This document shows, piece after piece, positions 9,331 to 58,905 of a stretch of DNA of 64,000 bases (the first letter of the stretch is position 1; every line of letters starts with the position of its first letter). Position numbers and translations under genes: made by a program. Location: NCBI GenBank assembly GCA_024408095.1, contig JAKSVI010000004.1:1546-65545 (forward strand), read 5' to 3'. The notes under the pieces were generated by a model. It did not search any database. It worked only from the letters and a program-made list of their open reading frames with translations, and had not been told where the DNA came from. This stretch comes from Bacilli bacterium. GTDB lineage: Bacteria; Bacillota_I; Bacilli_A; RFN20; CAG-826.

Positions 9331-9470
9331 GATCTTGTTTACCTCCTTTTTTCAATTTGTGTTTTGAGGCTCCAATATACTAGGGCTGAAATATCTATTT
9401 CGTCACCTCGGTAACATTATTAAGACTACTTTGTCCGTTACTGTCTTTGGTATATTGAAATCTTTAAATT
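9331..9470 (-). ncRNA. candidate L10 (rplJ) ribosomal-protein leader
   Basis: 140-nt untranslated spacer between rplA and rplJ, where Firmicutes carry the L10 leader. The minus-strand RNA can form GUAAC...GUUAC and further helices (…GACAGUAACGGACAAAGUAGUCUUAAUAAUGUUACCGAGGUGACG…). Called from position and foldability only; no covariance model was run. Confidence 0.4.
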
Positions 9471-30873: not shown

Positions 30874-30977
30874 ACATTCTCCTTACGACTAACATCTAAA
30901 TTTATAATTAAATTATAATGATAATTTCCAAGCTTTTCATTGTAAAGGCAAACATATATATTGTAAAATAGTACACA

Positions 30978-44371: not shown

Positions 44372-44536
44372 AATGCACACGCAAATAGCCACCTTGCTTT
44401 CCTTTCTTTTTCTGGCTATGCAATTAAGGGTTAAACACATTCCAAAACAAATTCAAACGATATTGTCTGTATGTATGTGTTTCTTAATCTTATTTTACTT
44501 ACACACGTGTGTGTTTTCAGTATTAATTTACTTTTT

Positions 44537-44554
44537 TTTCGATTATTTTGAAAA
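44537..44554. promoter_or_regulatory. degenerate copy of the ATTCGA-N6-TCGAAT palindrome
   Basis: TTTCGA-TTATTT-TGAAAA, 12 nt from the perfect site. The spacer is identical to the one at 57617-57634. Confidence 0.3.
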
Positions 44555-44565
44555 GCATATTATTT

Positions 44566-44583
44566 ATTCGATAAAATTCGAAT
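44566..44583. promoter_or_regulatory. candidate operator ATTCGA-TAAAAT-TCGAAT upstream of the GLUG-protein operon
   Basis: Perfect 6+6 inverted repeat in the 430-bp intergenic region, about 195 nt upstream of ATG 44371. The same palindrome occurs at 53978 and 57617. Confidence 0.55.
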
Positions 44584-44800
44584 GTTTAATGCGAATAAAC
44601 CATATAGGTTTACAATTTTTATTTGATTCAATCGAAATAATTTATACATATAAAATTAAAATTTATTTTATAATAAATTGCAAGTGTCTTTAAGATATAT
44701 GAAAAAATTACATAAATTTTAAATTCAAAAACCTATAAAAGCTTTAAAAATTAGTAAAATAGTCCAAATGAAAACAATAAATCGAAAATATTAAAACAAG

Positions 44801-46372
44801 TTAGATTCTATTTTTGGTTATTGGATCAAATGTGTGAATGCAATCATTTCTGAGCGAGAATGACATGACATCTCCAACTTTAATATTCTTTACGGCGTCG
44901 ATGTTTGCGAGTAATTCTTTGGTTGGAAAATCTAAGTGAACAAAATATTCACTACCTAAAAGTTCGGTTAAGGTAATCTTACATTTGAAACTTTCTTTAT
45001 CTTTACTTTCAACAATATGTTCAGGCCTAATTCCGAGAATAATTTCTTTTTCTTCTTTTTTGATTTGTTCCTCTAATTTATTCAATTTCCCCAGCAAATC
45101 TTCAATAATTGGATTAAATTCCTTTTCTTTTGCAAATAAATACTCTCTTAAAATTGAATTGAGTTTTACTTCGAGAGAATCAATATCATTTATATCCAAT
45201 AATGAATGAACTTCCTCATCCGTGATGTTTATAATTTCAAGGGTTGATTTATCCAACGAAGATATCAAATTAAATAACATGGTTTTATTAACTGTTTCAT
45301 TTTTGAAAATGGATTTATAAAGTTTTTTCTCTGCGAATCTACTCAAATATTCATCTTTCCAATCCTTGATTTGTGAACTATAAGAAGAGATTTGCGTACG
45401 ATAAAATTCATCAACTTTATCTTTAAATCCTTTGCCCATTGAAATCTTAATGCCGTTCGGTAGATAAATATCATCGCCTTTTGTTGTAACGTTTATCAAA
45501 TTCATAGCTGGAGAGCCAATAAATGTCGCGACAAATATATTTTTAGGTGTTTTAAAAATTTCTTCAGGAGTTCCAATTTGTTGAACATAACCCTTAGACA
45601 TAACAACAATTCGATCTGCCATAGTCATGGCTTCAGTTTGATCATGTGTAACGTAAATTGTTGTAGCGTTTAATGTGTTATGAAGTTTAACTAGTTCACT
45701 TCTCATAGTGACTCTTAGTTTAGCATCAAGGTTACTTAAAGGCTCATCCATTAAGAAAACTTTTGCGTCAGTAACAATTGCTCTTCCCAACGCTACACGT
45801 TGACATTGTCCACCACTTAAAGCAGCTGGTTTTCTATTTAAATATTCACTTATTTCAAGAATATCAGCAGCTTTATGGATTCTGTCATCTATTTCTTCTC
45901 TACTCATATTCTTGACTCTTAAGGCAAATGCCATATTGCCATACACAGTCATATGCGGATATAAGGCATAACTTTGGAAAACCATTCCTATTTCTCTATC
46001 TTTTGGAGGCAGTTCGTTAGCGTAGGTGCCATCAATAAATAAATCACCTGCAGTAATATCTTCTAACCCCGCAATCATACGTAAGGTAGTAGATTTACCA
46101 CATCCAGAAGGTCCAACGAAAACAATAAACTCGTGTTTTTTAATATCTAAGTTAAAATCATAAACAGCTTGAACGTGGTTAGGATATATTTTTGCGATAT
46201 GTTGTAAAGAAATATATGCATCGCTGTCAACATTTTTTTCTTCTTTATAACTATCTCTAGCCATCCTTAAGACTTCTTTATGATGACGTTCTCTTTCTTT
46301 AGCTAAAACTTTTTGTTCTTTTTTCTGTTGTTTAGTAATCGCTCTTTTTTGTTTTCTTTTCTCTAAGTCCAT
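44801..46372 (-). CDS. sugar ABC transporter ATP-binding protein (MsmK/MalK/UgpC type) with N-terminal basic extension and C-terminal insert
   Basis: Walker A GPSGCGKST, Q-loop FQSYALYP, signature LSGGQCQR, Walker B VFLMDEPLSNLD, H-loop YVTHDQ, and a TOBE-type C-terminus (GIRPEHI…LGSEYFVHL). Start set to ATG 46372, which has AAGGAGG 9 nt upstream; the track start is a TTG at 46381. Confidence 0.9.
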   Translation of the reverse strand: MDLEKRKQKRAITKQQKKEQKVLAKERERHHKEVLRMARDSYKEEKNVDSDAYISLQHIAKIYPNHVQAVYDFNLDIKKHEFIVFVGPSGCGKSTTLRMIAGLEDITAGDLFIDGTYANELPPKDREIGMVFQSYALYPHMTVYGNMAFALRVKNMSREEIDDRIHKAADILEISEYLNRKPAALSGGQCQRVALGRAIVTDAKVFLMDEPLSNLDAKLRVTMRSELVKLHNTLNATTIYVTHDQTEAMTMADRIVVMSKGYVQQIGTPEEIFKTPKNIFVATFIGSPAMNLINVTTKGDDIYLPNGIKISMGKGFKDKVDEFYRTQISSYSSQIKDWKDEYLSRFAEKKLYKSIFKNETVNKTMLFNLISSLDKSTLEIINITDEEVHSLLDINDIDSLEVKLNSILREYLFAKEKEFNPIIEDLLGKLNKLEEQIKKEEKEIILGIRPEHIVESKDKESFKCKITLTELLGSEYFVHLDFPTKELLANIDAVKNIKVGDVMSFSLRNDCIHTFDPITKNRI

Positions 46373-46386
46373 AACTAACAACCTCC

Positions 46387-48831
46387 TTAAATACCTTTAA
46401 TAGATAGGTTCTTATAATATGATTCAGCATTAATAGAATATAACGCTACTAGACCATGTGAATATGGATATGGATCTGTATAACTTGTTGCAAAAACCCC
46501 ATCAAAATAGACACTAATGAGATTTTTTTGGCAAATCACTTTTAATCTATGCCACTTATTTAATGAATACTGTGGACCGGTTGAAGCGCCAACAATATTA
46601 GTGGCATAATTCATTCTATCAATCATAATTTGCCCATTATTAAATCCTACAAAATATCCTTGTGAGGATTGATCGACATATCCACTATACAAACTAGCAT
46701 TTAATCCTCTAACAATAATTCCTGCGGCAGCATTACTTCCGGCACTTACTTCAATATTGATATCTACTTCAACTTCATAATCGGTTAAAGTCTCATCTCC
46801 TAATAAAACCATATTGTTAGCACCAGCTTTAGCTTTATGGCAATCAACACCATCTTTTTCCGCTATCTTCCACAATGATAGATAATTAGCTCCTTTATCA
46901 ATATAAGTAGATAAATCATTTTGATAATTTGGTAGATATTTAGAATCTTTAAATAAGTTACACGCAAATATATCTGCAACTCCCGAAACTAATTCTATTT
47001 TTAATGTGTGTAAACCTTTGGCGATTTCCGTCTCACAAAGCAATGTCTTAATAAACTGTAAGTTATGTTCATATTCGTTCATGTTACTGGCAAAATTAAT
47101 GGCAGGTAATGTGAACCTAATTGCATCATGATTATCAATCTGTAATGAAAGAATTGCCCCACTATGAGATTGCCTAAATGTTAATTCTAGTCCATATAAT
47201 CCAGTTTCTAAAACATCAATTGGATATAATAAATAATCTCCCACATTTGCTAAACTTACCGCGCTACTATCGCGATATATTTTTAATTTTTTATCATAGT
47301 TATCTAAAGGAATTTTAAATGTTTTTGAATTCCCAGTTAATTTACTTGCATCTAAATATGATGTGGCAAAGAATTGTCCTTCAACAACTTTTGGATCTTC
47401 TTTTTCTGAAGAATCAAAAGCTTCATTTGAGAATGTGGTTGTGCCAATCATTCCAACTCCTGAATATCCAACTTTACCACCACTAACAACTTCTTGATCT
47501 GTGATATCTATTTTCATCATATTATCGAAAAATACACGATAATGACCATTATCAACATTAAGTCTAATAGTGTGTAACTTAGTAAAATCAAACGAGTTTT
47601 TTAAAGTACCTGTCTCAATGAGCCCACCATTTACATACAATTTAATTTCTTTATTTACGATGGTAATGTAGTTACTATAATCATCATCTTCTACTGAGAA
47701 ATATAACTTCATTGAACCATCAGTCTCAACGTTTGAGAAATTATATTCTACTGAAAATCGTTCATTATGTGCGACTTTCGATAGGGTTTTTCCACTTTTT
47801 TCTTCCATATTTGATAAATCATAACTAACAAAATCTGGTAGTAAAGGAATCAACGCCCCTTTATCTGTTGGACCGTTTATAGTCATTCTATTTTCCGCAA
47901 AAAGAAGTCTATTTATGTTAAAAGATCTAATAGGTCCGCTGCCATCAACTAAGTTATGATAGGCAATATAATAAGAATCTAGGTTTGGTCCTAATACTGT
48001 TGAAGAATGTCCTAATCCAACCTGATCTCCAAGAGTTTTCAAAGCAATTGAATTGTTAGCGGGATAATTAAAGCCTTCAAATGGGCCATCATTAGAATAT
48101 GAATAGTTAATTCTATATCCTTTGCTTTTGACATGATTTCCAGCATATGTTAAAAAATATGTCCCATTATGTTTCATCATGTATGGGCCTTCTGTCCACT
48201 TAATCATTGGTGAAAATATTTGTTCTTCAGAAGATGGTCTAATATTTGTCATGGAATCCATTTCATAGGCCATAATGCCACCATTACCGCCAGTGAGAAA
48301 TGTCATTGATTCATCATCATCGATAAATACGCTTCCATCAATACTTAAACCAATATTATCTGTTACAGCTTTATAGTCTCCATATGGAAGACCAGTGACA
48401 CTTTTATAAATATAATGTCCTTTACCAGCTGGTGATCCATAACAATAGAAATCACCATTCCAGTAATATACTTCTGGAGCATATTGCCCTAATTGATTGT
48501 CGGTTGTACCATCTTTATTTAAGAACTGGAACAGTCCTAAATATTCAAAATGAATTAAGTCATGAGATTTCCAGCATTTATACCCTTCTTCTCCATCACG
48601 AGTTGATGAGAAAAGATAATATTCTCCATTAAAACGATACAAATATGGATCGCCTACACCATAATTTTCCCATTGTTCTGGAATCTTATCAGTTCCAAAT
48701 CTGTTATCATAACGTTCTCTAGATTTCACTTCATAATCCACCTTTGTAAATCCATTTCCGATAGAAGGAGCTTGACCACAGCTAGAAAGCATTAATGCTG
48801 GGATTATAAGTAAACAACATTTCTTTTTCAT
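46387..48831 (-). CDS. surface lipoprotein, GH43 five-bladed propeller glycosidase + C-terminal ConA/CBM-like modules
   Basis: 814 aa with lipobox LMLSSCG. GH43 motifs: GVGDPYLYRFNGEYYLFSS (catalytic Asp), YAPEVYYWNGDFYCY, GSVFIDDD, TEGPYMMKHNGTYFLTYAGN (catalytic Glu). Confidence 0.8.
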   Translation of the reverse strand: MKKKCCLLIIPALMLSSCGQAPSIGNGFTKVDYEVKSRERYDNRFGTDKIPEQWENYGVGDPYLYRFNGEYYLFSSTRDGEEGYKCWKSHDLIHFEYLGLFQFLNKDGTTDNQLGQYAPEVYYWNGDFYCYGSPAGKGHYIYKSVTGLPYGDYKAVTDNIGLSIDGSVFIDDDESMTFLTGGNGGIMAYEMDSMTNIRPSSEEQIFSPMIKWTEGPYMMKHNGTYFLTYAGNHVKSKGYRINYSYSNDGPFEGFNYPANNSIALKTLGDQVGLGHSSTVLGPNLDSYYIAYHNLVDGSGPIRSFNINRLLFAENRMTINGPTDKGALIPLLPDFVSYDLSNMEEKSGKTLSKVAHNERFSVEYNFSNVETDGSMKLYFSVEDDDYSNYITIVNKEIKLYVNGGLIETGTLKNSFDFTKLHTIRLNVDNGHYRVFFDNMMKIDITDQEVVSGGKVGYSGVGMIGTTTFSNEAFDSSEKEDPKVVEGQFFATSYLDASKLTGNSKTFKIPLDNYDKKLKIYRDSSAVSLANVGDYLLYPIDVLETGLYGLELTFRQSHSGAILSLQIDNHDAIRFTLPAINFASNMNEYEHNLQFIKTLLCETEIAKGLHTLKIELVSGVADIFACNLFKDSKYLPNYQNDLSTYIDKGANYLSLWKIAEKDGVDCHKAKAGANNMVLLGDETLTDYEVEVDINIEVSAGSNAAAGIIVRGLNASLYSGYVDQSSQGYFVGFNNGQIMIDRMNYATNIVGASTGPQYSLNKWHRLKVICQKNLISVYFDGVFATSYTDPYPYSHGLVALYSINAESYYKNLSIKGI

Positions 48832-48845
48832 TGTGTCTGTTCTCC

Positions 48846-50597
48846 TTAAAATAAAGTAAACATGGTTCCCACTGAACCAGATCTAAATCCATATTGATTT
48901 CCAGAAATTAATAGGGTTCTGCTATATATTTCTAATACATTATCGATGTAACATTCAATTCCATCATCGCTATAAGTTACCTTAATTTCATATGTTTTAT
49001 TCACGTCATAATGATCAATAGGATGCGATGCTATTTCGTTCCATCCTTCATATACAAGACCTAAATAAGCATAGCCTTCTCTATTAATCATAAAGAAGTA
49101 ATAATAAGTGTCTTCGTCTTCCCAGAATTGTTTTTTAGTCGTATCTAAAAGAAAGATAATGCCATTATCACTATTAGAACCAGCTTTCATTGAAGTTACC
49201 AATGTGACTTCTTCATCAATTGGTGCCAAATTATTACTTACAAGAATGGCGCCATCATTTTTAACATTTTTAACTCGAACTGAGGTTTCTTGTACATTGG
49301 AATATTCAAATTCTCCGCAAGCTGTGTGATATCCTTTAATTCCGTATTTTGCACCTTCCGTTGAATCTGAGAAAGTAACATTTTTATATTTAATTCCTTT
49401 TTGAGCGCTTCTTAATCCACACGCTAATGCTGTTATTGAATCATCTTCAACCAAGAAAACAAAAGTATTGTTAATGTAGCATGTTATAAATCCATCACAG
49501 AGAATTACTTTGAAGTTGTTCCAATCTGCTTCTGTGTGTGGAACATTTTCATATACACCGACTTCATTCCACTCACCATGATTAACATAGCCTAATAAAG
49601 CATTGCCATCTCTATTTAGGCATAAGAAATAATAAGAAACATCTTTGTCTTCGAAATAATATTTTTTATCTAATGGATCTTTAACTTGAATGGTGATTCC
49701 GTTATCAGCGACTTTATCATATGGTAAATACATATCAACGGAATAAGTTCCTCTTTCAAAGGCATCATAGTTGAAAGAACCAATACTTGGAACAATGTCT
49801 GTTGAATATATTTGATCATTATATTTATATGCTCCGCAGTTAATAGACAAATCTTCTATTAAATAATCCACAGGTCCAAATTCATCAATAGAAGCATATG
49901 TATCAATAATCTGAGGATCAGCAACCCAGCCAGTCCATTTTGATGTAATTTCTCCAGTATGTTTATCACGACATCCGAAGGCTATACCTATTATTGATTC
50001 TCTAGTAAAGCCAAAGGTTTGGTAAGGCATATATATTTCGCATCCCCATCCAGTATCAATATCAGAATCATTATTAACAGTACCTTCAACGTGAACTGCA
50101 TAGTCCACAACACCACTCCAACTAGACCAATATGATCCAGTTCCATTTCTCATTTCAATAAATTCAAGAGGATTAACTAAGAAGGCAAAATCATCTTGTT
50201 GTGCTACTTTTCCTTTATCATTTAATGTGTCAACATATATCTCAACGTTATCGGAATTAACAACAAATTGTGGATCGTTATAATTTGTAGAAGCTGCTAA
50301 ATATTTATCATGAGAATAAAAGCCTGCAGTTAAGCCATTATTTCCAAATACAACTTTAGCAGTAACACTCGTTTCAAAATCTTCTCTTCCACCTAATTCC
50401 ACAGTTAATGCTGCATCCTTATAATCTTCAGGATCAATAATTCCATCAATAGGAAAATCTGGAACAATCAAGTTCCCTTCTTGTTGAAAATTATTGTTAC
50501 CGACAGTTTTTGCGTATAAACCACTATAAAAAGGTATTTCTTGAGAGCAGGATGTAAGCAATAATGGAAGAAGTAAAATAAGTAATTTCTTTTTCAT
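48846..50597 (-). CDS. surface lipoprotein: CBM9-like N-terminal module + two ConA-like (YYFF-type) modules
   Basis: Start trimmed to ATG 50597 (MKKKLLILLLPLLLTSC lipobox), 1 nt after the permease stop. CBM9-like DGIIDPEDYKDAALTV…DNVEIYVDT. Modules GITIQVKDP…VSYYFLCLNRDGNALLGYVNHG and GIIFLLDTT…TYYYFFMINREGYAYLGLV. Confidence 0.55.
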   Translation of the reverse strand: MKKKLLILLLPLLLTSCSQEIPFYSGLYAKTVGNNNFQQEGNLIVPDFPIDGIIDPEDYKDAALTVELGGREDFETSVTAKVVFGNNGLTAGFYSHDKYLAASTNYNDPQFVVNSDNVEIYVDTLNDKGKVAQQDDFAFLVNPLEFIEMRNGTGSYWSSWSGVVDYAVHVEGTVNNDSDIDTGWGCEIYMPYQTFGFTRESIIGIAFGCRDKHTGEITSKWTGWVADPQIIDTYASIDEFGPVDYLIEDLSINCGAYKYNDQIYSTDIVPSIGSFNYDAFERGTYSVDMYLPYDKVADNGITIQVKDPLDKKYYFEDKDVSYYFLCLNRDGNALLGYVNHGEWNEVGVYENVPHTEADWNNFKVILCDGFITCYINNTFVFLVEDDSITALACGLRSAQKGIKYKNVTFSDSTEGAKYGIKGYHTACGEFEYSNVQETSVRVKNVKNDGAILVSNNLAPIDEEVTLVTSMKAGSNSDNGIIFLLDTTKKQFWEDEDTYYYFFMINREGYAYLGLVYEGWNEIASHPIDHYDVNKTYEIKVTYSDDGIECYIDNVLEIYSRTLLISGNQYGFRSGSVGTMFTLF

Positions 50598-50598
50598 A

Positions 50599-51495
50599 TT
50601 AATGTTTGCTCCCCGATAACATAAAAGTATTAACAAAGTGTTTTTGGAAAATAATATAAATTAATAAAGTTGGTATTGAAGATAATACACTTGCAGACAT
50701 AACTTCTGGTAAGTGCAATAATGAATCGCTTCCGCCAGAGCCTGTGCTTAAATTTCTAATAACAATTTGTAGTGTCTGAGATTCAGCTTTATTTAAGTAA
50801 ATGTCAGGTCCAAAGAAGTCGTTCCAAATACCTAAGAACCAGAAAATTACTTGTGCAAATAATGCTGGTTTAATTAAAGGAAGGAACAATTCAAAATAGG
50901 TTCTAAAGAAACCTGCTCCATTAATTTCAGCGGCTTCATATATTTCATTAGGAATAGTGTCTGCGTATTGCTTAATAAAGAATAACATTGAGACATTTCC
51001 GAATAATCCAGGAATGATTAATGGCAATAATGTGTTGATCATTTTTAGTTTTGCAAACACTAAATATTGAGGTGCCAAAACAGCAATATACGGAATCATC
51101 ATTCCGGTCAATAACATATAAAATAGTACGTTTTTGCCGAAGAAATTGATTCTTGAAAACGCATAACCTGCTAATGTTGTTACAAAGGTCCCAATGATTA
51201 AAACAAAGAATTCAATAATAAATGTATTTAGGAATCCTCTACCAATCATGATGTTCTCATCAGTAAAAATTGTGATGTAATTATTAAAAGTAAATTCTTT
51301 AGGAATTAAATAGAAAACAGCACTATTGTTGATAACTTCATCAGCAGTTTTAAAAGAAAGAGAAAGCATATATAAGTAAGGGAAAATCATGATAAAAGCG
51401 ACAATGACTAATATGAAAATAGCCAAAACTTTCAAAGTATAAAATTTGGTTTCACCTAATATATGTTTTCTTTTTCTTTGAGCAAGCGTTTCCAT
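50599..51495 (-). CDS. carbohydrate ABC transporter permease (MalG-like)
   Basis: 298 aa with 6 TM helices and EAA loop YEAAEINGAGFFRTYFELFLPLIKP. Confidence 0.9.
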   Translation of the reverse strand: METLAQRKRKHILGETKFYTLKVLAIFILVIVAFIMIFPYLYMLSLSFKTADEVINNSAVFYLIPKEFTFNNYITIFTDENIMIGRGFLNTFIIEFFVLIIGTFVTTLAGYAFSRINFFGKNVLFYMLLTGMMIPYIAVLAPQYLVFAKLKMINTLLPLIIPGLFGNVSMLFFIKQYADTIPNEIYEAAEINGAGFFRTYFELFLPLIKPALFAQVIFWFLGIWNDFFGPDIYLNKAESQTLQIVIRNLSTGSGGSDSLLHLPEVMSASVLSSIPTLLIYIIFQKHFVNTFMLSGSKH

Positions 51496-51498
51496 ATA

Positions 51499-52386
51499 TT
51501 ACCTTACTGCTTTCTTTCCTCTCGAATTCAAATAGAATTGGAGAAGTGTAACAACAAATAAAAGTCCAAAGACAAAAATTGCTCCTGCAGCGACTAGACC
51601 ATATTCGCCACGTTTAAAACAATCATACAAATAATAAACAATCGTCTGAGATTCACTGCTTGCAACAATAACATAGTTATCTGCAAACGCCATAATACCA
51701 CCAATAATTCCAGTGACTAATAAGTAGAATGATGTTCCATTGACTAAAGGAATAGTTATATGAAACATCTTTTGAATAGTATTAGCTCCAGCAATATCTG
51801 CTGCTTCATACATATCTAAAGATATATTTTGAATAGAAGCATAATAAAGTAACAGTGTTCCACCTAATCCTCCCCATACACCTTTCATGATAAGGGTTAT
51901 TTTGACTACAGAAGGATCGCTTAACCAGTGAACGTTAGTGTGAAAAATAATGTTGATGGCACCATATTGACCATTAAATAACCATTTCCAAACAACTCCA
52001 ATAGCAACAGCGGAAGTAACTGCAGGTAAATAATAGAGAATCAAGTAGGGTTTTTTTGCTTTAACAAATTTTGAATTAATTAATGTCGCTAATAAAAAAG
52101 CAAAAAGCATTCCTATAGGAATACCTAACATTAAGAATAATGTATTGGTGATAGATTTAATAAATTTTTGATCTTCAAATAAAACTTTGAAATTTTGAGT
52201 GCCAATAAAATATTCTGGAGAAGTATCCCAATATCCTTCCGTCATATCATAGAAAGAACCTTGAATCGTTTTAATTAAAGGAATTAAGGTAAAAATAACG
52301 AAACCAACGACCATTGGCAAAATTAAACAATAGCCGATTAGATTATTTTTAACTTTCTTAGATAAACGGTTTCTTTTGGCCCTCAT
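51499..52386 (-). CDS. carbohydrate ABC transporter permease (MalF-like)
   Basis: 295 aa with 6 TM helices and EAA loop YEAADIAGANTIQKMFHITIPLV. Confidence 0.9.
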   Translation of the reverse strand: MRAKRNRLSKKVKNNLIGYCLILPMVVGFVIFTLIPLIKTIQGSFYDMTEGYWDTSPEYFIGTQNFKVLFEDQKFIKSITNTLFLMLGIPIGMLFAFLLATLINSKFVKAKKPYLILYYLPAVTSAVAIGVVWKWLFNGQYGAINIIFHTNVHWLSDPSVVKITLIMKGVWGGLGGTLLLYYASIQNISLDMYEAADIAGANTIQKMFHITIPLVNGTSFYLLVTGIIGGIMAFADNYVIVASSESQTIVYYLYDCFKRGEYGLVAAGAIFVFGLLFVVTLLQFYLNSRGKKAVR

Positions 52387-52389
52387 ATA

Positions 52390-53892
52390 TTACCAACTAT
52401 ATTTATTAGCGTAATCGTTTAATTTGACTTGGACACTACCTTGTAGAGAGTCTAAGAAGGAGTTATTGATACGTGATTTTGTTGACCAATCCCAAACATC
52501 AATATGTCCGCCATATTGTCTGTCATTATGGAATACTCTATATAATTTTAAAGAATCGTTTGCGGATTCCCACATTTCTTGACTCCATTTATCATTATAT
52601 GTATATGAAGCAGGACGTCTTTTTGAATTCTCTGCAATATCAATATAAACTTGCCTATTTAATGGACGGTTTAATCCTTTGCCATCATCTAATGTAGCAG
52701 TTAAGAATTCGCCTTTTGCCATATCTTTCAAGTTAGGAAGGGCTTGACCCATTTTATAGTTAATGCGTTGAGCTTCCTGATTCACTGTTAAGAATTCTGC
52801 TAATTCATAGGCGGCTTGAGGAACACCAGTTGTTTTACAAACAGCAATTCCAACACTACCTAGATATGATTGAGTAGTACAACCACTTCTTGGGGCATCT
52901 TTCCAGTCATCTTCTTTTTCAAGACTGCCACTTTGGTTTGGAACTGGAGTTGGTAATACATCCCAATCAAAATTACATCTCCACATTTCAGGGAGCTTAT
53001 AGAAATCAATGAATGATGAGGAAGCTAGTCCACTAATGAATCTACTATAACCATCTTGGCCACCGCCACCTTGGTCTTCAGCAGCAGTCATAACATTGAA
53101 TTTTAATGCTAAATCAGCGACAAATTGCAAAGATTCGGCAAATTTATCATTCGCAATTGTTGATATTTTTCTAGTTGAATCAGTAAAGTCTCCGCCTGCT
53201 GTAAAGTATGCAGTTTCAAGAGGATAATGTGTTATACCAACTATTGAATCATGATCTTTTGGATCTCCGGTTTGTGTATCCTTACAAAATCTAATAAATT
53301 GCGCCCATGTCATTGGGGTAGATTGATAAACGGTTTTGGTGTTGGCATCATAACCATATCCATTTGGAGATGTTTCAGAAGAGATTGTGATACCTTTTTT
53401 TAAAGCGTTTGTTTTGTTATATGTTAATGCAATTGGTCCAACATCTTTTGGTAAAGCATACAAATCGCCTGTGCCTAAACGTTTATTAGCGGCATCAAAT
53501 CTATATGCATTTAATCCTTCAAACCACACATTATCTGTTGAAAATGTTTTTGATGCTTCAATAAAAGGAGTTAAGTTCATCATTACGTTATTTCTGCTAT
53601 TAGCCCATTCAATAAAATTGGTGTCTGGCATATAGAAAACATCAGGCATCGTATCTGATTGACGTTTTGTTAATAAAGCATTCATATAAAGTTCTGACGA
53701 AGAGCTTTCATAGTGAACATCGTATTCTGGATGTATTTCTTTAAATTTTGCAATCATTGCATTGAAAACAGCTTTTTCTTCCGCAGATCCCCAACCAAAG
53801 AAATTAATCAAAGTTTTTGATGGGTCTCTTTTGTTTGCGCCACAAGAACACAAAGCCAAAAAAGGCAAAAAGAGCAAATATAGTTTTTTCAT
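52390..53892 (-). CDS. extracellular sugar-binding lipoprotein (ABC substrate-binding protein, family 1)
   Basis: 500 aa with lipobox FLALCSCG. First gene upstream of the two permeases. General family-1 SBP sequence character. Confidence 0.75.
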   Translation of the reverse strand: MKKLYLLFLPFLALCSCGANKRDPSKTLINFFGWGSAEEKAVFNAMIAKFKEIHPEYDVHYESSSSELYMNALLTKRQSDTMPDVFYMPDTNFIEWANSRNNVMMNLTPFIEASKTFSTDNVWFEGLNAYRFDAANKRLGTGDLYALPKDVGPIALTYNKTNALKKGITISSETSPNGYGYDANTKTVYQSTPMTWAQFIRFCKDTQTGDPKDHDSIVGITHYPLETAYFTAGGDFTDSTRKISTIANDKFAESLQFVADLALKFNVMTAAEDQGGGGQDGYSRFISGLASSSFIDFYKLPEMWRCNFDWDVLPTPVPNQSGSLEKEDDWKDAPRSGCTTQSYLGSVGIAVCKTTGVPQAAYELAEFLTVNQEAQRINYKMGQALPNLKDMAKGEFLTATLDDGKGLNRPLNRQVYIDIAENSKRRPASYTYNDKWSQEMWESANDSLKLYRVFHNDRQYGGHIDVWDWSTKSRINNSFLDSLQGSVQVKLNDYANKYSW

Positions 53893-53977
53893 AAGCTTAA
53901 CCTCTTGCTTTAATTCTATATTATGTTAAAAACATACACAATTGCCATTTTTCAATATATTAAAAAAATACTTTATT

Positions 53978-53995
53978 GTTCGAAATTATTCGAAT
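53978..53995. promoter_or_regulatory. candidate operator GTTCGA-AATTAT-TCGAAT in the divergent SBP/regulator promoter region
   Basis: 11 of 12 palindromic positions match. Lies 86 nt upstream of the SBP ATG (53892) and 12 nt upstream of the regulator ATG (54007). Confidence 0.55.
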
Positions 53996-54006
53996 ATATT
54001 ATTGTT

Positions 54007-54939
54007 ATGAAAGAATCTAGAAATGTCCATTTAAGCGTTAATGATAATGATCAATTAGAGAAAATTGGAGACAGTTTTTCTTCTGGTTACAGAAGAAGAA
54101 TTTTATTTTTACTATCAAAAAGAAGTTACTCAACTCAAGAATTATTGGACGAACTAAAGATTTCTCCTTCCACTCTTTCATTTCACTTAAAAATATTAAG
54201 AGAGGCGAAGCTTATTAAGTTTGTTAAAGCACCATCAAAACGAGGAAATGAGAAAAATTTATCATTAAATATTGACTCGCTTGTAGTGAATTTTGATTCC
54301 ACTACTGCGAATAATGTTAAAACAGAAAACATCGATATCGGCCTTGGAAGCTTTTCTAAATTTGAAGTAAAGGCGCCTTGTCTTATAGCAACAGAAAATG
54401 AAATATTACAGCCAATTGATAATGATGTCATTTTTAATAGCACCGATAAAATAAAGGCTCAATTAATTTCTTTTACAGAAGGTTATATCGAATATCTAGT
54501 TTCGAATGATTTGCTATATTTTTCTAAAATTAAAGAGCTATCATTTACTCAAGAAATATGTAGTGAGTGCCCAAACTTTAATAATAATTGGAAAAGCGAC
54601 ATTTCATTCTATTTGAATAATATTAAAATTGGTGAATTCCTTTCTTTGGGTGATTACGGCGGAAGATTAGGATTATTTTCACCGCAATGGTGGCCTACTA
54701 ACTCATCTAATTATGGAATATTAGTAAATGTCACAATTAATGATGATGGCACTTTTATTAATGGCAAAAAAACTAGTGACTTAAAAATCAATGAGTATTT
54801 CAAAGAAGAAAAAATTATTAAATATAGGATTGGCGTCGATCACAACAGCAAACACCTTGGTGGTATAAATATTTTTGGCAGACACTTTGGTGATTTTAAA
54901 CAAAATATTTCGTTAAATATAACTTATATTGATAAATAA
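54007..54939 (+). CDS. ArsR-type winged-HTH regulator with ~210-aa uncharacterised C-terminal domain
   Basis: wHTH RRRILFLLSKRSYSTQELLDELKISPSTLSFHLKILREAKLIKF. Start taken as ATG 54007 (MKESRNV…) rather than 53923, because the extra 28 aa are hydrophobic AT-rich read-through. No clear SD at either start. The C-terminal domain is not recognised. Confidence 0.65.
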   Translation: MKESRNVHLSVNDNDQLEKIGDSFSSGYRRRILFLLSKRSYSTQELLDELKISPSTLSFHLKILREAKLIKFVKAPSKRGNEKNLSLNIDSLVVNFDSTTANNVKTENIDIGLGSFSKFEVKAPCLIATENEILQPIDNDVIFNSTDKIKAQLISFTEGYIEYLVSNDLLYFSKIKELSFTQEICSECPNFNNNWKSDISFYLNNIKIGEFLSLGDYGGRLGLFSPQWWPTNSSNYGILVNVTINDDGTFINGKKTSDLKINEYFKEEKIIKYRIGVDHNSKHLGGINIFGRHFGDFKQNISLNITYIDK

Positions 54940-54940
54940 A

Positions 54941-55798
54941 TTACGATAAGAAATCTTTTCTTAATTTTAAACCACAATCATATATTCTCTTAAGTTGCTT
55001 TTTAAATTCGTCCATACTTTCAACATTTAAAAGTGGGATCGTTTCAAAAGTGAAATCACCTTGATAATTTATTTTTTTAAGTGCTTTTATTATTTCGTCA
55101 AAATCAATCATTCCATCACCAGGTAATAAATGTTGATCATGGTGTTTGTCATTGTCGTGAATATGTAGGCATTTTAATCGTGGGCCCAATGAATTTATCA
55201 TCTCCACTGCGCTTGTATTTAAGCCTTTCATTTCGGCATGTCCAATATCGACAATTGCACATGCGAAATCGTCATTTATTAAGTCTAACAGATGAACAAA
55301 ATTCTTGTGATTTGAGCAAGAAGCAAGACAAGCATGATCATTTTTCTCATCCCAATTCCACATATTCTCAATTGAGACTTTTATATGAAATTTATGGCAA
55401 AACGGCAATATTTTTTTAAAATATGCAGAATTGTATTCATCATCATAATCGTTTAAAGGATGGACAACACAATAGTCTGCTCCTAATATTGAACTAACCT
55501 TAAGGCTTCTAATTAGTAGCTTGTATTGGCTTTGAATTTTAGCCTTAGAAAAAGATGGATGCTCAATCGGAAAAGGGGAATGAGTTTGATTACATTTCAT
55601 TTCTAATTTATCTGCGAATTTTCGTAAAGTTTTTGCTCTTTTTATATAATCTCTTTTGTCGATAAATTGATCATAACATCCATCGTTATTACACATAGTA
55701 AAATCATATGTGTCAAAGCCAACTTCCTTCATGGCGGTCAGTATATCGTATATACTTCTATTTTTAAATTGTAAGGTATGGCAAGATATTCTATACAT
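54941..55798 (-). CDS. sugar phosphate isomerase/epimerase (xylose isomerase-like TIM barrel)
   Basis: 285 aa with motifs KVSIENMW, VDIGHAEM and CLHIHDND typical of the AP_endonuc_2/xylose-isomerase-like fold. No signal peptide. Confidence 0.75.
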   Translation of the reverse strand: MYRISCHTLQFKNRSIYDILTAMKEVGFDTYDFTMCNNDGCYDQFIDKRDYIKRAKTLRKFADKLEMKCNQTHSPFPIEHPSFSKAKIQSQYKLLIRSLKVSSILGADYCVVHPLNDYDDEYNSAYFKKILPFCHKFHIKVSIENMWNWDEKNDHACLASCSNHKNFVHLLDLINDDFACAIVDIGHAEMKGLNTSAVEMINSLGPRLKCLHIHDNDKHHDQHLLPGDGMIDFDEIIKALKKINYQGDFTFETIPLLNVESMDEFKKQLKRIYDCGLKLRKDFLS

Positions 55799-57545
55799 TA
55801 TTTTTATTAATTTCTTCTAAAGTTTTTATATCAAATTTGGGTTGTCTATTAAAAGTAAATAGGCCGTTAACTTCTTGATAAACATCAGTAAGTTGAGTAA
55901 CACACCAGCCAGCTATATTTGGAGCAGTCGAGGCACATTTGATTAATCTTCTATATCTATCTATTAATCCATCTTTATCTTTTACTGAATCTCCATAACC
56001 CCACCCATTTTGAACAGTTTCAACATTAAAGCCAATACCACAAAATTCATCTAATAAAATAGGTTGTCCCTCATATTTAAATCCGTTAGCAAAAGGAGTG
56101 AATTTAGCAATAGCGTCGTTAATACACGTGTTATTTTTACAAATTTCTAAAATATTCTCAGTGTAATATCTTAATTTTTCATCATCTTGTATGTAATTAT
56201 GGAATGTCACTAAATCAGTCTTGCAATGGAGCCAACCATCATTAGAGATAACTAATCTAGTGGGATCAAATCTTTTGGTAAAATCATATATTTGAACGAG
56301 AAAATCCTGTTGTTCTTTACTTGTTCGAATACCGGGAATTCCCCAAGATTCATTAAATGGAGTCCACACTAAGATAGAAGGGTGATTAATATGTTGAACT
56401 AATATTTCTTGCCATTCTCTTAGTATGTTTTCTTTTAGTTCATCATCAAAATCATATCCACTTGGCATTTCGCTCCAAGTAATAAGACCAACTTGGTCAC
56501 ATAAATAATAGAATCTATCATCTTCTACTTTCTGATGTACTCTTAAACCATTAAATCCACTATTTTTGATTAGCTCTATTTCTTTTATCATTTCTGCATT
56601 ATTCTCAAAAGTATATATTCCTTTTGGATAATAGCCCTGCTCTAAGATTAATTTCATAAATAAAGGCTTGCCATTTAATAAAACTTTGCCATTTTCAGTT
56701 TCTATAAATCTATATCCAAAGTAACTAGAAACTTCATCAATCACTTCTCCATTTTTAATTAGTTTTAATTTAACAGAATATAAATTTGGATTTTCAGTAT
56801 CCCAAAAGTGTATTTCATTTAAAGGTACATTTGTTACTAATTTTTCATTACCAAAACGAACTAATTTTTGTGCGACTAATTTGTCTAAAAACAAGAAATT
56901 TATTTCAATTTCCCCTTCAAAACTAAAGTTATTTAACAAAATTGACACATCTACAGAATTATTTTTATTAGGAATGAATTGGAAGAAAGTAATATAAGTG
57001 CTTCGTACAATTTCAGCCCAGACTGATTTCCATATTCCATTAACTTCTTGATAAAAACATTCGAAAGGTTTGTCTTTCCATTTTTGTTTACCGCGAGGTT
57101 GATGAATGCTATATGAATCGTCGCATCTAATTACAACATTTCCTTTTTTCTCAATAAGATAGTCAGTTATATCGAAACAAAAAGAAGTGTAACCACCTAA
57201 GTGCTCTCCAACAAACTTACCATTAACATAAAGTTTTGTTTTATAGTCAGCAGCATCTATATGAAAAAGGACTCTTTCATTTTCTTTATAATCGAAGCTA
57301 ATTTCTTTTTGATAGTAAATGGTGTCATAATGAGTTTTATCGTTTATTCCGCTGAGCTCACATTGATAACAATATGGAACATTTATTTTCAAACAATCTT
57401 TAGGGAACTCAATGAATCTCTGATCGTGTTCATATATTCTCTTGTCATCGACATAAAAATTCCACTCACCATTTAAATTAAGAAATGAATTTCTTACAAA
57501 AAGTGGTCTAGGATAATCCGAAATTATTTTCGACAAATCTTTCAT
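55791..57545 (-). CDS. glycoside hydrolase family 2 (beta-galactosidase/beta-glucuronidase/beta-mannosidase type), cytoplasmic
   Basis: Start trimmed to ATG 57545 (MKDLSKIISDYPRP…). Sugar-binding domain NGKFVGEHLGGYTSFCFDIT. TIM barrel NGLRVHQKVEDDRFYYLCDQVGLITWSEMP. Acid/base region HPSILVWTPFNESWG. Confidence 0.85.
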   Translation of the reverse strand: MKDLSKIISDYPRPLFVRNSFLNLNGEWNFYVDDKRIYEHDQRFIEFPKDCLKINVPYCYQCELSGINDKTHYDTIYYQKEISFDYKENERVLFHIDAADYKTKLYVNGKFVGEHLGGYTSFCFDITDYLIEKKGNVVIRCDDSYSIHQPRGKQKWKDKPFECFYQEVNGIWKSVWAEIVRSTYITFFQFIPNKNNSVDVSILLNNFSFEGEIEINFLFLDKLVAQKLVRFGNEKLVTNVPLNEIHFWDTENPNLYSVKLKLIKNGEVIDEVSSYFGYRFIETENGKVLLNGKPLFMKLILEQGYYPKGIYTFENNAEMIKEIELIKNSGFNGLRVHQKVEDDRFYYLCDQVGLITWSEMPSGYDFDDELKENILREWQEILVQHINHPSILVWTPFNESWGIPGIRTSKEQQDFLVQIYDFTKRFDPTRLVISNDGWLHCKTDLVTFHNYIQDDEKLRYYTENILEICKNNTCINDAIAKFTPFANGFKYEGQPILLDEFCGIGFNVETVQNGWGYGDSVKDKDGLIDRYRRLIKCASTAPNIAGWCVTQLTDVYQEVNGLFTFNRQPKFDIKTLEEINKNNV

Positions 57546-57616
57546 ATATATAATATTAATATAGATAATATATTTTGATAGATTTATTTTAATGAATTTA
57601 AAAAACACATTTATTT

Positions 57617-57634
57617 ATTCGATTATTTTCGAAT
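57617..57634. promoter_or_regulatory. candidate operator ATTCGA-TTATTT-TCGAAT upstream of the GH2 operon
   Basis: Perfect 6+6 inverted repeat 72 nt upstream of ATG 57545. Confidence 0.55.
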
Positions 57635-57733
57635 TGTTCATTATAATTTTTCAACTCTCCGAGATATGTAGCATATTATATCCAACAAACATCATATCCA
57701 AGTATCTTAAAAACATGATTTCGATGTATTCAC

Positions 57734-58711
57734 TTATTTTACTTTCCAATGACCGTAACGCTTGCCGTTCATCCTTTTTATTATTTTTTTATTTTGTAAT
57801 TCCATCAAAACAGTTTTAATTGTCCTAAGAGATTTGCTAGTAATAGAAGAGATTTCTTCGCTGGTAATATTGTTTTTTCCTTTTATTAACTTTAATACCT
57901 GCTCTTCCAAATTATTTAACGAGTTGGTTTCTTTCTTAGTGATGTTAACAGATAGTAATTTATTTTCCAAAGTGTTCTTTTCACCTTTCAATAAATTGTT
58001 AAGAAAAATAACTAAAAAAGACTTATCAACAAAAATTCCTTTATTTATATTACTATAATTCGCTCTCACTAATGAATTTCTAAAATACCAAGCATTATTA
58101 GCAAAAGTATCGTTTGTTACATCAAACCCCAATGTTTGAAGATACTTGATAGTAAATATTGCTGTAGTCCTCGTATTACCTTCTTGGAAAGGATGAATCT
58201 GCCAAAGGTTAGCAATAAAAGTAGCTAGATGATCAATAATTTCATCTATAGATTTGTTTGAGTAATTATATTGTCTTTCTACTGAGAAATCATATTCTAA
58301 TGTTGATTGTATTTCTCTATAATCTGCATAATATACACTTTCACCATTTAATACCCATTCTTTCTTAGAAAAATTGAATTCTCTGAACTTGCCTGCGTGT
58401 TCATATACATTTGTAAATAATATTTTATGAATAGATAGAAGTTGACCAACTGTAAAGACAAAACCTCTGTTTGCTAATATATTGGCTATATTTAAAGAAA
58501 CAAGATCAGGTTTATCTTCTTGATTAATGGTTTCATCGTCTCTTTTATTTGCATAATAATCGGTTATTATTTTGTAAGCTTCTTCAAAGGAAACATCCCC
58601 ATTGATATATTTTTCACTTACTTCTTTATATTTATCAGATACAGTTAAACCATCTACATCTTGTAGACCAATACCTGTTTTAACGCAATATTTTAAATAC
58701 TTCTTTTCCAT
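57734..58711 (-). CDS. Fic family protein with C-terminal winged HTH
   Basis: 325 aa with Fic core HPFQEGNTRTTAIF (variant of HxFx(D/E)GNGRxxR) and a C-terminal wHTH (ITSEEISSITSKSLRTIKTVLMELQNKKIIKRMNGKRYGHW). Confidence 0.85.
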   Translation of the reverse strand: MEKKYLKYCVKTGIGLQDVDGLTVSDKYKEVSEKYINGDVSFEEAYKIITDYYANKRDDETINQEDKPDLVSLNIANILANRGFVFTVGQLLSIHKILFTNVYEHAGKFREFNFSKKEWVLNGESVYYADYREIQSTLEYDFSVERQYNYSNKSIDEIIDHLATFIANLWQIHPFQEGNTRTTAIFTIKYLQTLGFDVTNDTFANNAWYFRNSLVRANYSNINKGIFVDKSFLVIFLNNLLKGEKNTLENKLLSVNITKKETNSLNNLEEQVLKLIKGKNNITSEEISSITSKSLRTIKTVLMELQNKKIIKRMNGKRYGHWKVK

Positions 58712-58738
58712 AATAAGATATTATATATCTAAATTTCT

Positions 58739-58779
58739 AAAGTGCAATCCCAAAGTGCAAAAATAAGACCAAAGTGCAA
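58739..58779 (-). promoter_or_regulatory. three direct repeats (TTGCACTTT on the coding strand) overlapping a sigma70-like promoter of the Fic gene
   Basis: AAAGTGCAA occurs at 58739, 58752 and 58771 on the + strand. On the minus strand, TTGCAC (58747-58742), a 16-nt spacer and TATAAT (58725-58720) are followed by the ATG only 8 nt later, which suggests a leaderless mRNA. Confidence 0.45.
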
Positions 58780-58905
58780 ATGGTTATTGAATCGCCGGTT
58801 TTTCATATCAACAATAATCAGTGCTTTTCAAATGTAAATCAATATTCGTGCATAATATTTTGATATTATGCGTAAAAATTGAAACCCCCTATTTTTTGAG
58901 AAAAA

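What the first reader, a model, noticed from the sequence alone, without database searches (positions are those of the whole stretch)
44566..57634. An 18-bp palindrome ATTCGA-N6-TCGAAT marks exactly the three promoter regions of the glycan locus
Read directly: 44566-44583 is ATTCGA TAAAAT TCGAAT (upstream of the GLUG-protein operon). 53978-53995 is GTTCGA AATTAT TCGAAT (between the SBP operon and the ArsR-like regulator gene). 57617-57634 is ATTCGA TTATTT TCGAAT (upstream of the GH2 operon). The flanks are also shared (TT(A/G)TTCGA…TTCGAAT), and a degenerate second copy (44537-44554) sits next to the first site. I saw only isolated half-sites inside coding sequence elsewhere in the window. The AraC-adjacent operon promoter (30874-30977) lacks the palindrome. 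This is the pattern of a dimeric wHTH operator defining a small regulon. The autoregulated ArsR-like gene next to site 2 is the obvious candidate binder.
Basis: seen in the sequence. Interest (0 to 1): 0.65.

Follow-up and report, generated by a model that had tools for sequence, protein, structure and literature searches.

The report
Conserved operator of a glycan-locus regulator
Three copies of a short DNA palindrome are real and are very probably the docking sites of the neighbouring regulator protein, which belongs to a large, unstudied family controlling complex-sugar digestion genes in gut bacteria.

Summary
Three sites (44566-83, 53978-95, 57617-34) match ATTCGA-N6-TCGAAT with at most one mismatch, against 0.25 expected by chance. 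All three lie in non-coding DNA, each ahead of one transcription unit of the locus. The motif is better written TTCGAW-N4-TTCGAA: two palindromic hexamers one helical turn apart.

In 505 kb of related loci there are 20 exact copies. Nineteen sit directly upstream of an ortholog of the 54007-54939 regulator, in genomes of 28-58% GC. The twentieth precedes a homolog of a site-1 operon gene. More distant family members have a different recognition helix and lack the motif. Genes that form separate units here (GH2, the GDSL/LamG genes) lie next to the regulator, or inside its divergent operon, in other genomes.

Two points are new:
- A -10-like box starts 58-60 nt after the operator in most sites, which puts the operator near -80 of the catabolic promoters. 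That is too far upstream for simple occlusion, so activation or cooperative repression is likely.
- The regulator joins an ArsR-type winged helix to a beta-sandwich that has no Pfam family and only weakly resembles lectins. The family has thousands of members, and my literature searches found none that has been characterised.

The direction of regulation and the effector are unresolved.

The parts
44566..44583 (.). Operator O1, site 1 (core TTCGAT-AAAA-TTCGAA, 44567-44582). It lies 126 nt upstream of the longest-ORF ATG (44440) of the p908...p694 unit.
   Evidence: unchanged in variant strain X2
53978..53995 (.). Operator O1, site 2 (core TTCGAA-ATTA-TTCGAA, 53979-53994), in the divergent region between the SBP operon (ATG 53892) and the regulator gene (ATG 54007).
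   Evidence: orthologous position conserved in 20 loci; unchanged in X2
57617..57634 (.). Operator O1, site 3 (core TTCGAT-TATT-TTCGAA, 57618-57633), 72 nt upstream of the GH2 ATG (57545).
   Evidence: unchanged in X2 although 8 substitutions and 1 indel lie elsewhere in the same intergenic region
54007..54939 (+). Regulator, 310 aa: an ArsR-type winged helix (about residues 1-90) followed by a roughly 215-aa beta-sandwich with no Pfam family. It is the candidate O1-binding protein.
53995..54000 (+). Predicted -10 box (TATATT) of the regulator promoter. It abuts O1 and ends 6 nt before the ATG, which implies a leaderless mRNA. Inferred.
   Evidence: sequence; the geometry TTCGAA|TATAnT|N6|ATG recurs in L023, L024 and L025
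53913..53918 (-). Predicted -10 box (TAGAAT) of the SBP operon promoter, starting 60 nt after O1. The paired -35 is TTGTGT at 53936-53941. Inferred.
57553..57558 (-). Predicted -10 box (TAATAT) of the GH2 unit, starting 59 nt after O1 and ending 7 nt before the ATG, with no Shine-Dalgarno sequence. The mRNA is probably leaderless. Inferred and weak (1.7 bits).
44492..44497 (-). Predicted -10 box (TAAAAT) of the p908 unit, starting 69 nt after O1, one helical turn further than at the other sites. The paired -35 is CTGAAA at 44515-44520. Inferred.
44537..44554 (.). The equivalents at the other sites are 53947-53966 and 57586-57605. It is either a weak auxiliary site or an UP-like element.
   Evidence: positional conservation (T-tract and A-tracts at offsets 12-31) in 20 anchored sequences
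54941..57545 (-). Transcription unit behind site 3: GH2 (55791-57545) and a xylose-isomerase-like TIM barrel (54941-55798).
44801..53892 (-). Transcription unit behind site 2: SBP, two permeases, a CBM9-like/DUF1080 protein, GH43 and a MalK-like ATPase.
   Evidence: syntenic in L012, L019, L025, L151 and L152
31917..44440 (-). Transcription unit behind site 1: p908, p453, a GDSL esterase (887 aa), p651, a LamG/metallophosphatase protein and p694.
   Evidence: homologs lie next to a regulator in L027 and behind a second O1 in L151

Best explanation
TTCGAW-N4-TTCGAA (O1) is the DNA site of the adjacent 310-aa regulator. A dimer of its ArsR-type winged helix would read the two TCGA cores, which lie 10 bp apart on one face of the helix. 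The three copies define a local regulon of three catabolic units (an ABC importer with GH43, GH2 with a TIM barrel, and a set of large secreted GDSL/LamG proteins) plus the regulator gene itself. At its own promoter O1 fills the -35/-10 spacer of what looks like a leaderless mRNA, so the protein probably represses itself. At the catabolic promoters O1 is centred about 80 bp upstream of the predicted start (about 90 bp at site 1), at a distance that is conserved to within 1 bp across genomes. From that position it cannot simply block RNA polymerase. I consider it most likely (about 55%) that the bound regulator activates these promoters from upstream in a helix-phase-dependent way. The trigger would be an oligosaccharide from the target glycan, sensed by the C-terminal lectin-like beta-sandwich. 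Shown here: the sites, their conservation, their co-occurrence with the regulator subfamily, the conserved regulon content and the conserved spacing. Inferred: binding, promoters and start sites, direction of control, and the effector.
For: - Enrichment: 3 sites against 0.25 expected, all in non-coding DNA.
- Distribution: 20 exact copies in 504,755 bp of related loci. Nineteen lie directly upstream of regulator orthologs and one lies upstream of a homolog of window gene GDSL887 (35% identity over 695 aa). There are none elsewhere. One-mismatch versions lie upstream of the regulator in L002, L003 and L027.
- Specificity: the motif is present only with the ST-x-SFH-x-KIL helix and GNEKN wing. 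It is absent from Thermoanaerobacterium and Clostridium thermarum homologs, which have other helices although they sit beside the same SBP-permease-GH2-GH43 genes.
- Regulon content: GH2 is inside the divergent operon (L012, L019, L025, L151) or fused behind the regulator (L002-L004). The GDSL/LamG/metallophosphatase genes are divergent from a regulator in L027.
- Spacing: a -10-like hexamer of at least 4 bits starts 58-60 nt after O1 in 15 of 23 sites, against at most 9% at any other offset. A looser -10-like hexamer is there in 21 of 23. Clear TTGACA-17-TATAAT promoters with cre-like sites in the spacer confirm these as real promoters in the orthologs.
- Own promoter: the geometry TTCGAA|TATAnT|N6|ATG is shared by the window, L023, L024 and L025.
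- Protein: the HTH_5 hit has E 4.7e-13, Foldseek matches CzrA, SmtB and PH1932, and the C-domain model has pLDDT 91.6 with only sugar-binding beta-sandwiches as weak matches.
Against: - No binding, expression or start-site data exist; only DNA runs hold this sequence.
- Promoter calls in 30% GC DNA are weak. The generic scans match shuffle expectation, and the site-3 -10 box scores only 1.7 bits.
- Nearly all characterised ArsR/SmtB proteins are repressors (my own knowledge), which argues against activation.
- The C-domain fold matches have TM-scores of only 0.3-0.4, so sugar sensing is a guess.
- The rest of the genome could not be scanned, so the regulon may be larger than three units.
- Site 1 departs from the common spacing by +10 nt.
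Confidence: 0.8

Rival explanations
1. The same protein and site act as a classical inducible repressor. A dimer on the strong O1 recruits a second dimer to the weak AT-rich element at offsets 12-31. Together they cover the DNA up to the -35 box and shut the catabolic promoters until an oligosaccharide releases them.
For: ArsR/SmtB proteins are typically repressors (my own knowledge). ArbA, the only published ArsR-type sugar regulator I found, was predicted to be a repressor (PMC8579813). A positionally conserved AT-rich element lies between O1 and the -35 box. At site 1 it keeps one good half-site, ATCGAA. Fixed spacing would also be needed for cooperative binding. O1 does overlap the regulator's own core promoter in the window clade.
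Against: The second element has lost the invariant CG cores in nearly all loci, and it resembles an UP element as much as an operator (UP consensus from my own knowledge). No O1-like site overlaps the -10 box or start of any catabolic promoter.
Confidence: 0.35
2. O1 is bound by a different factor, global or unlinked, and the ArsR-like gene is merely a neighbour.
For: No direct binding data exist. Orthologous promoters also carry cre-like sites for a global regulator.
Against: Across orders and across 28-58% GC, O1 accompanies the regulator gene at a fixed position and disappears when the recognition helix changes. There are no other exact copies in 0.5 Mb of related DNA.
Confidence: 0.05
3. 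The three sites are leftovers of a duplicated promoter cassette or a chance feature of AT-rich DNA, with no regulatory role.
For: The three window sites share AT-rich flanks. At 2 mismatches the pattern is not enriched.
Against: The count is 3 against 0.25 expected. The core is invariant in GC-rich genomes where the flanks have diverged. Variant strain X2 keeps all three sites.
Confidence: 0.02
4. TTCGAA doublets are restriction-modification or methylation targets rather than protein operators.
For: TTCGAA and TCGA are recognition sequences of known type II systems (my own knowledge).
Against: Fifteen other isolated TTCGAA hexamers are scattered through the rest of the window. A methylation target would not explain the paired 10-bp spacing, the promoter location or the linkage to the regulator.
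Confidence: 0.02

Closest known systems
ArsR/SmtB repressors (CzrA, SmtB, CadC) and their inverted-repeat operators
   Same: The winged helix-turn-helix is of the same type (Pfam HTH_5 E 4.7e-13; Foldseek TM 0.66-0.71 normalised to the target). The site is a palindrome with half-sites one helical turn apart. The regulator is probably autoregulated.
   Different: There are no metal-ligand residues in the helix domain (sequence). The score is below the NCBIfam metalloregulator cut-off (42.6 against 55). The model shows no alpha-5 dimerisation helix. A 215-aa beta-sandwich is added. The site lies at -80 of the target promoters rather than over them.
PH1932 and Phr of Pyrococcus (ArsR-type winged helix plus a C-terminal domain)
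   Same: These are the best structural match to the N-terminal part (1uly/2cwe and 2p4w). They share the two-domain layout with the winged helix first.
   Different: Only the 94-96 residues of the N-terminal winged-helix part align, so the C-terminal beta-sandwich has no counterpart in these structures. They are archaeal and have no link to sugar metabolism.
TrmB sugar-sensing regulators of Thermococcales
   Same: The logic is the same (my own knowledge): an N-terminal winged helix plus a C-terminal sugar-binding domain, controlling an ABC sugar importer through a palindrome. Whether relatives such as TrmBL1 and Tgr activate or repress depends on where the site lies.
   Different: The window protein has no hit to Pfam TrmB (PF01978). 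The C-domain is unrelated by sequence, with no Pfam hit at E<=1.
ArbA (Athe_1102) of Caldicellulosiruptor bescii, a predicted regulon (PMC8579813)
   Same: It is described as the first ArsR-family factor linked to carbohydrate use. It is divergent from a glycosidase gene and has conserved sites in the shared intergenic region.
   Different: It is a prediction only. The published site (GTTCAAATCTATAAAAAAG) is unlike O1. I could not obtain its sequence, so whether it has the same C-domain is unknown.
Class I (CRP-type) upstream activation, and the strong-site/weak-site layout of LysR-type regulators
   Same: O1 lies at -80 or -90, two positions one helical turn apart. The regulator gene is divergent and its promoter overlaps the strong site. 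A weaker AT-rich element lies next to the -35 box (the comparison rests on my own knowledge).
   Different: The protein families are unrelated. This is an analogy of layout, not a claim of membership.

Membership tests
ArsR/SmtB family | ArsR-type winged helix-turn-helix domain | tested here: met
   PF01022 scores 49.2 bits against a cut-off of 22, and PF12840 scores 39.8 against 27. A PDB profile search hits CzrA, SmtB and HlyU. Foldseek agrees.
ArsR/SmtB family | Metal or metalloid sensing site (alpha-3N Cys motif or alpha-5 His/Asp/Glu site) | tested here: not met
   Residues 1-90 contain no Cys and no His cluster. The model has no alpha-5 helix. NCBIfam HTH_metalloreg scores 42.6, below its cut-off of 55.
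ArsR/SmtB family | Homodimer that represses by binding an inverted repeat over its own promoter | tested here: inconclusive
   O1 is an inverted repeat and lies between the predicted -35 and -10 boxes of the regulator promoter. Dimerisation and repression cannot be tested with these tools. At the catabolic promoters the site is near -80.
TrmB family | TrmB N-terminal domain (PF01978) with the TrmB sugar-binding C-domain | tested here: not met
   The window protein has no PF01978 hit. The C-domain has no Pfam hit at E<=1. Only distant homologs give sub-threshold PF01978 scores.
Uncharacterised 'ArsR winged helix + beta-sandwich' regulators of Firmicutes | A protein of about 300-330 aa with the winged helix first and a conserved C-domain carrying the E-x-CSECPNYN and GINIFG-x-FGD motifs | tested here: met
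   Alignments A2 and A3. 637 representative clusters share this layout. There are more than 2232 hits to the C-domain profile and more than 4150 to P0254.
Uncharacterised 'ArsR winged helix + beta-sandwich' regulators of Firmicutes | Placement beside an SBP-permease-permease-GH2/GH43 locus | tested here: met
   Seen in the window, L012, L019, L025, L151, L152, L029 and L030.
ArbA-type regulators (PMC8579813) | Orthology to Athe_1102 | not tested
No Caldicellulosiruptor protein appears among the 120 best hits listed in either search.
Carbohydrate-binding module / lectin fold (C-domain) | Beta-sandwich similar to solved sugar-binding domains | tested here: inconclusive
   The model is confident (pLDDT 91.6, pTM 0.88). 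The best Foldseek matches (BcsB, Fbs1, legume lectins, CBM36) have query-normalised TM-scores of only 0.30-0.40.

The most novel reading that the evidence does not exclude
The regulator is a ligand-dependent upstream activator descended from the ArsR repressor lineage. It senses a glycan fragment through a lectin-like beta-sandwich and works from a helix-phase-locked site at -80 or -90 while repressing its own leaderless gene. It would be the first defined member, with a known operator, of a family of thousands of unstudied Firmicutes regulators that sit beside glycan-utilisation loci.
Probability: 0.4. Interest if true: 0.7.

Novelty: new variant of a known kind. Interest (0 to 1): 0.55.

Why it matters
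Local regulators with palindromic operators are ordinary. This one, however, belongs to a very large family that databases label only 'ArsR/SmtB family transcription factor', a label that suggests metal sensing. The evidence here ties one subfamily to a precise DNA motif, to a conserved set of glycan-degrading genes and to a conserved promoter layout. That makes the family directly testable. It would correct a widespread annotation, and it offers a way to predict glycan-utilisation regulons in uncultured gut Bacilli and Clostridia. If the activator reading holds, it would also be an unusual change of mechanism within the ArsR lineage.

Tried and rejected
- Generic sigma-70 and terminator scans of the three regions gave counts equal to shuffles and were not used as evidence.
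- No RNA runs hold this sequence, so start sites could not be mapped.
- Variant strain X2 keeps all three sites, but with about 1% divergence this has little statistical weight. One short read-laying query returned nothing for technical reasons.
These are chance matches and say nothing about the regulon.
- One-mismatch intergenic hits in L006, L007 and L022 lie next to unrelated genes (AAA_14/DUF4143, HTH_3, MgsA). I rejected them as regulon members.
- cre (CcpA) sites are not enriched in the window and none lies in the three regions.
- There is no Rfam family in the three intergenic regions.
- Whether ArbA of Caldicellulosiruptor belongs to this family could not be settled.
- Literature searches found no experimental work on this family.
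Full report
**1. Observation.**
The three sequences are exactly as reported. With at most one mismatch to ATTCGA-N6-TCGAAT the window has these three matches and no others. Shuffles give 0.25, and none of 100 shuffles reaches three. At two mismatches the count falls to chance level.

About 6% of the window is non-coding, once a spurious ORF (44373-44693) and an over-long regulator ORF are set aside. All three sites fall in that fraction. The window holds 19 TTCGAA hexamers. Four belong to the three sites and the rest are isolated.

Aligned with 14 orthologous sites, the motif is best written TTCGAW-N4-TTCGAA. It consists of two palindromic hexamers whose TCGA cores are 10 bp apart, with a conserved T in the spacer and asymmetric flanks.

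**2. Locus.**
Genes run on the minus strand except the two regulators.
- Site 3 precedes GH2 plus a xylose-isomerase-like TIM barrel.
- Site 2 lies between the regulator (plus strand, 54007-54939) and SBP, two permeases, a CBM9-like/DUF1080 protein, GH43 and a MalK-like ATPase.
- Site 1 follows the MalK stop, with no terminator-like site between them. It precedes p908, p453, a GDSL esterase, p651, a LamG/metallophosphatase protein and p694.

The nearest solved relatives of GH2 are a beta-glucuronidase entry and a beta-D-galactofuranosidase. The nearest relatives of GH43 are arabinofuranosidase- or xylanase-like entries. The glycan is therefore not identified. A furanoside-bearing plant or microbial glycan is a reasonable guess.

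**3. Comparative test.**
A genome scan with the regulator profile gave 22 loci from Bacilli and Clostridia MAGs. Contig look-ups added closer relatives (83%, 58%, 54% and 48% identity) and others.

Upstream of every regulator that carries the helix ST-x-SFH-x-KIL and the wing GNEKN there is an O1 copy. The copy is exact in 19 loci and has one mismatch in L002, L003 and L027/28. These genomes range from 28% to 58% GC.

In 504,755 bp of these loci there are 20 exact matches. Nineteen are these regulator-proximal sites. The twentieth (L151, 14483-14498) lies 89 nt upstream of a 1073-aa lipoprotein that is 35% identical over 695 residues to the window's GDSL887, a gene of the site-1 operon.

Three groups of more distant relatives behave differently:
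- Thermoanaerobacterium thermosaccharolyticum and Clostridium thermarum carry other recognition helices. Their regulators sit beside SBP-permease-permease-GH2-GH43 but lack O1.
- Christensenellaceae orthologs keep FH-type helices with changed neighbouring residues. They carry a different conserved element with a single TCGAA (CAGGATTTATCGAAATTCAAAA).
- The motif therefore tracks the DNA-reading surface of this protein, which is what is expected of its own operator.

**4. Regulon content.**
In L012, L019, L025 and L151 the order is regulator <-> SBP-permease-permease-CBM9-like-GH43-GH2. This is one operon behind one O1. In L002-L004 GH2 directly follows the regulator. In L027 a 48%-identical regulator is divergent from a unit that includes GDSL, LamG and LamG/metallophosphatase proteins. 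That unit matches window genes LamG_Metallophos603 (36% over 552 residues), p694 and the GDSL domain.

So the genes that form separate units in the window are regulator-linked elsewhere, and in the window each separated unit has its own O1. This is the classical signature of a conserved regulon.

**5. Promoter geometry.**
On the regulator side, the window and its three closest relatives share TTCGAA|TATAnT|N6|ATG. In L025 the match is to the second ATG, the one that aligns with the other N-termini. This fits a leaderless mRNA whose -10 box abuts O1, so a bound protein would exclude RNA polymerase. Some gene callers even translate the operator: the N-terminal 'FEY' in P0002 and P0003 is TTCGAATAT. 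In more distant loci O1 ends 6-12 nt before a clear -35 box of the regulator promoter.

On the catabolic side, anchoring 23 sites on O1 gives the following:
- A -10-like hexamer of at least 4 bits starts 58-60 nt after O1 in 15 sites.
- No other offset exceeds 9%.
- A looser -10-like hexamer is present there in 21 of 23.

In many orthologs this box is part of an obvious TTGACA-17-TATAAT promoter with a cre-like sequence in the spacer, which marks it as the true sugar-operon promoter. The window's site 2 (TTGTGT-17-TAGAAT) and site 3 (TAATAT, then 7 nt, then the ATG, with no Shine-Dalgarno sequence) fit this spacing. At site 1 the best box is 10 nt further away (TAAAAT at offset 69). L027, which fronts the homologous gene set, has candidates at both 59 and 70.

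O1 is therefore centred near -80, or near -90 at site 1. Between O1 and the -35 box lies a positionally conserved AT-rich stretch (a T-tract and then A-tracts, offsets 12-31). It has lost the CG cores and looks as much like an UP element as like an operator.

**6. The protein.**
The full-length model has pLDDT 87. The first ~95 residues superpose on PH1932, and about 76-80 of them on CzrA and SmtB. The canonical alpha-5 helix and the metal ligands are absent. The C-domain has these properties:
- no Pfam hit at E<=1;
- a confident model (pLDDT 91.6, pTM 0.88);
- only weak Foldseek matches (TM 0.30-0.40), all to sugar-recognising beta-sandwiches: BcsB, Fbs1, legume lectins, CBM36;
- three invariant cysteines and acidic residues in E-x-CSECPNYN, which suggest a metal or structural site.

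The family is large. There are 637 clusters at 50% identity with the same layout, and thousands at 90% identity. Members occur in Paenibacillus, Priestia megaterium, Clostridium beijerinckii and Halothermothrix, all with generic names.

**7. Mechanism and rivals.**
That O1 is this regulator's site and defines the regulon I rate at about 0.8. The direction of control is open. A lone strong site at -80 or -90, held to within 1 bp across distant genomes with a one-turn variant, is the pattern of upstream, phase-dependent activation. This comparison with CRP class I promoters rests on my own knowledge. I put activation at about 55%. Cooperative repression through the AT-rich element I put at about 35%. 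That rival fits the family's repressor habit and the ArbA prediction (PMC8579813). Autorepression in the window clade follows from the site's position. A different binder, chance, or a methylation target are each unlikely (section 3).

**8. Comparison and novelty.**
The winged helix is ArsR/SmtB by sequence and fold. The protein nevertheless fails the metal-sensor features of that family, and it is not a TrmB. Functionally it resembles TrmB-type sugar sensors and, in layout, LysR or class I systems. The only related report I found is the predicted ArbA regulon, whose membership in this family I could not test. I classify the finding as a new variant of a known kind.

**9. Limits.**
There are no expression or binding data, no whole-genome scan and no identified effector. 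Promoters are predicted in AT-rich DNA. The metagenome pattern scan was uninformative.

Noticed in passing
L003, L004, L006-L009, L012, L013, L019, L151, L152 (offsets about 40-56 after O1); window 44441-44800, 53893-54006, 57546-57733: Orthologous catabolic promoters carry cre-like (CcpA) sequences such as TGTAAGCGCATACA or GAAAGCGCTTTCG between the -35 and -10 boxes. The window's three promoter regions have none, and cre matches in the window are at chance level.
   Followed up: partly
window 44501-44512: A perfect 12-bp palindrome, ACACACGTGTGT, sits in the spacer of the predicted p908 promoter (between CTGAAA at 44515-44520 and TAAAAT at 44492-44497). It could be the site of a second, unknown regulator specific to this unit.
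   Followed up: no
window 57543-57558 and 53995-54009: Both the GH2 gene and the regulator gene lack a Shine-Dalgarno sequence and have a -10-like box 6-7 nt before the ATG. Both mRNAs are probably leaderless. The same holds for regulator genes in L011, L151 and the Christensenellaceae loci.
   Followed up: partly
window 44373-44693 and 53923-54006; proteins P0002, P0003: Mechanical ORF calling produces a spurious 106-aa ORF across site 1. It also produces N-terminal extensions of the regulator that translate the operator itself (TTCGAATAT read as 'FEY').
   Followed up: yes
L019 10001-10914: The regulator ortholog in this 1.48-Mb MAG contig is interrupted by stop codons after about residue 65 (frameshift or pseudogene). 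O1 and the SBP...GH2 operon are intact.
   Followed up: no
L014-L017, L021 (about 60-85 nt before the regulator ATG): Christensenellaceae orthologs have a different conserved element, CA(G/A)GATTT(A/C)TCGAA(A/T)TTCAAAA, directly before a clear TTGACA-17-TATAAT leaderless promoter. It is probably the diverged operator of that clade.
   Followed up: partly
window 57734-60189: Directly beyond site 3 lie a Fic/DOC-domain gene with a C-terminal winged helix and a Schlafen AlbA_2/HATPase_c_4 gene. These look like defence or mobile-island cargo unrelated to the glycan locus.
   Followed up: no
window 44801-46381: The MalK-like ATPase is 526 aa, about 150 aa longer than usual, with extra sequence between the OB_MalK and TOBE_2 matches. 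In run X2 the assembly breaks into many small contigs across 45,500-46,170.
   Followed up: no
window 9365-9468 (-): A ribosomal protein L10 leader (RF00557, 45.5 bits) is the only Rfam match in the window. It is ordinary.
   Followed up: yes
window 57519-57536: An inverted repeat, CGAAA-TTAT-TTTCG, lies inside the first codons of GH2. Its TCGA-like cores are 12 bp apart rather than 10, so it is not an O1 copy. Its meaning is unknown.
   Followed up: partly
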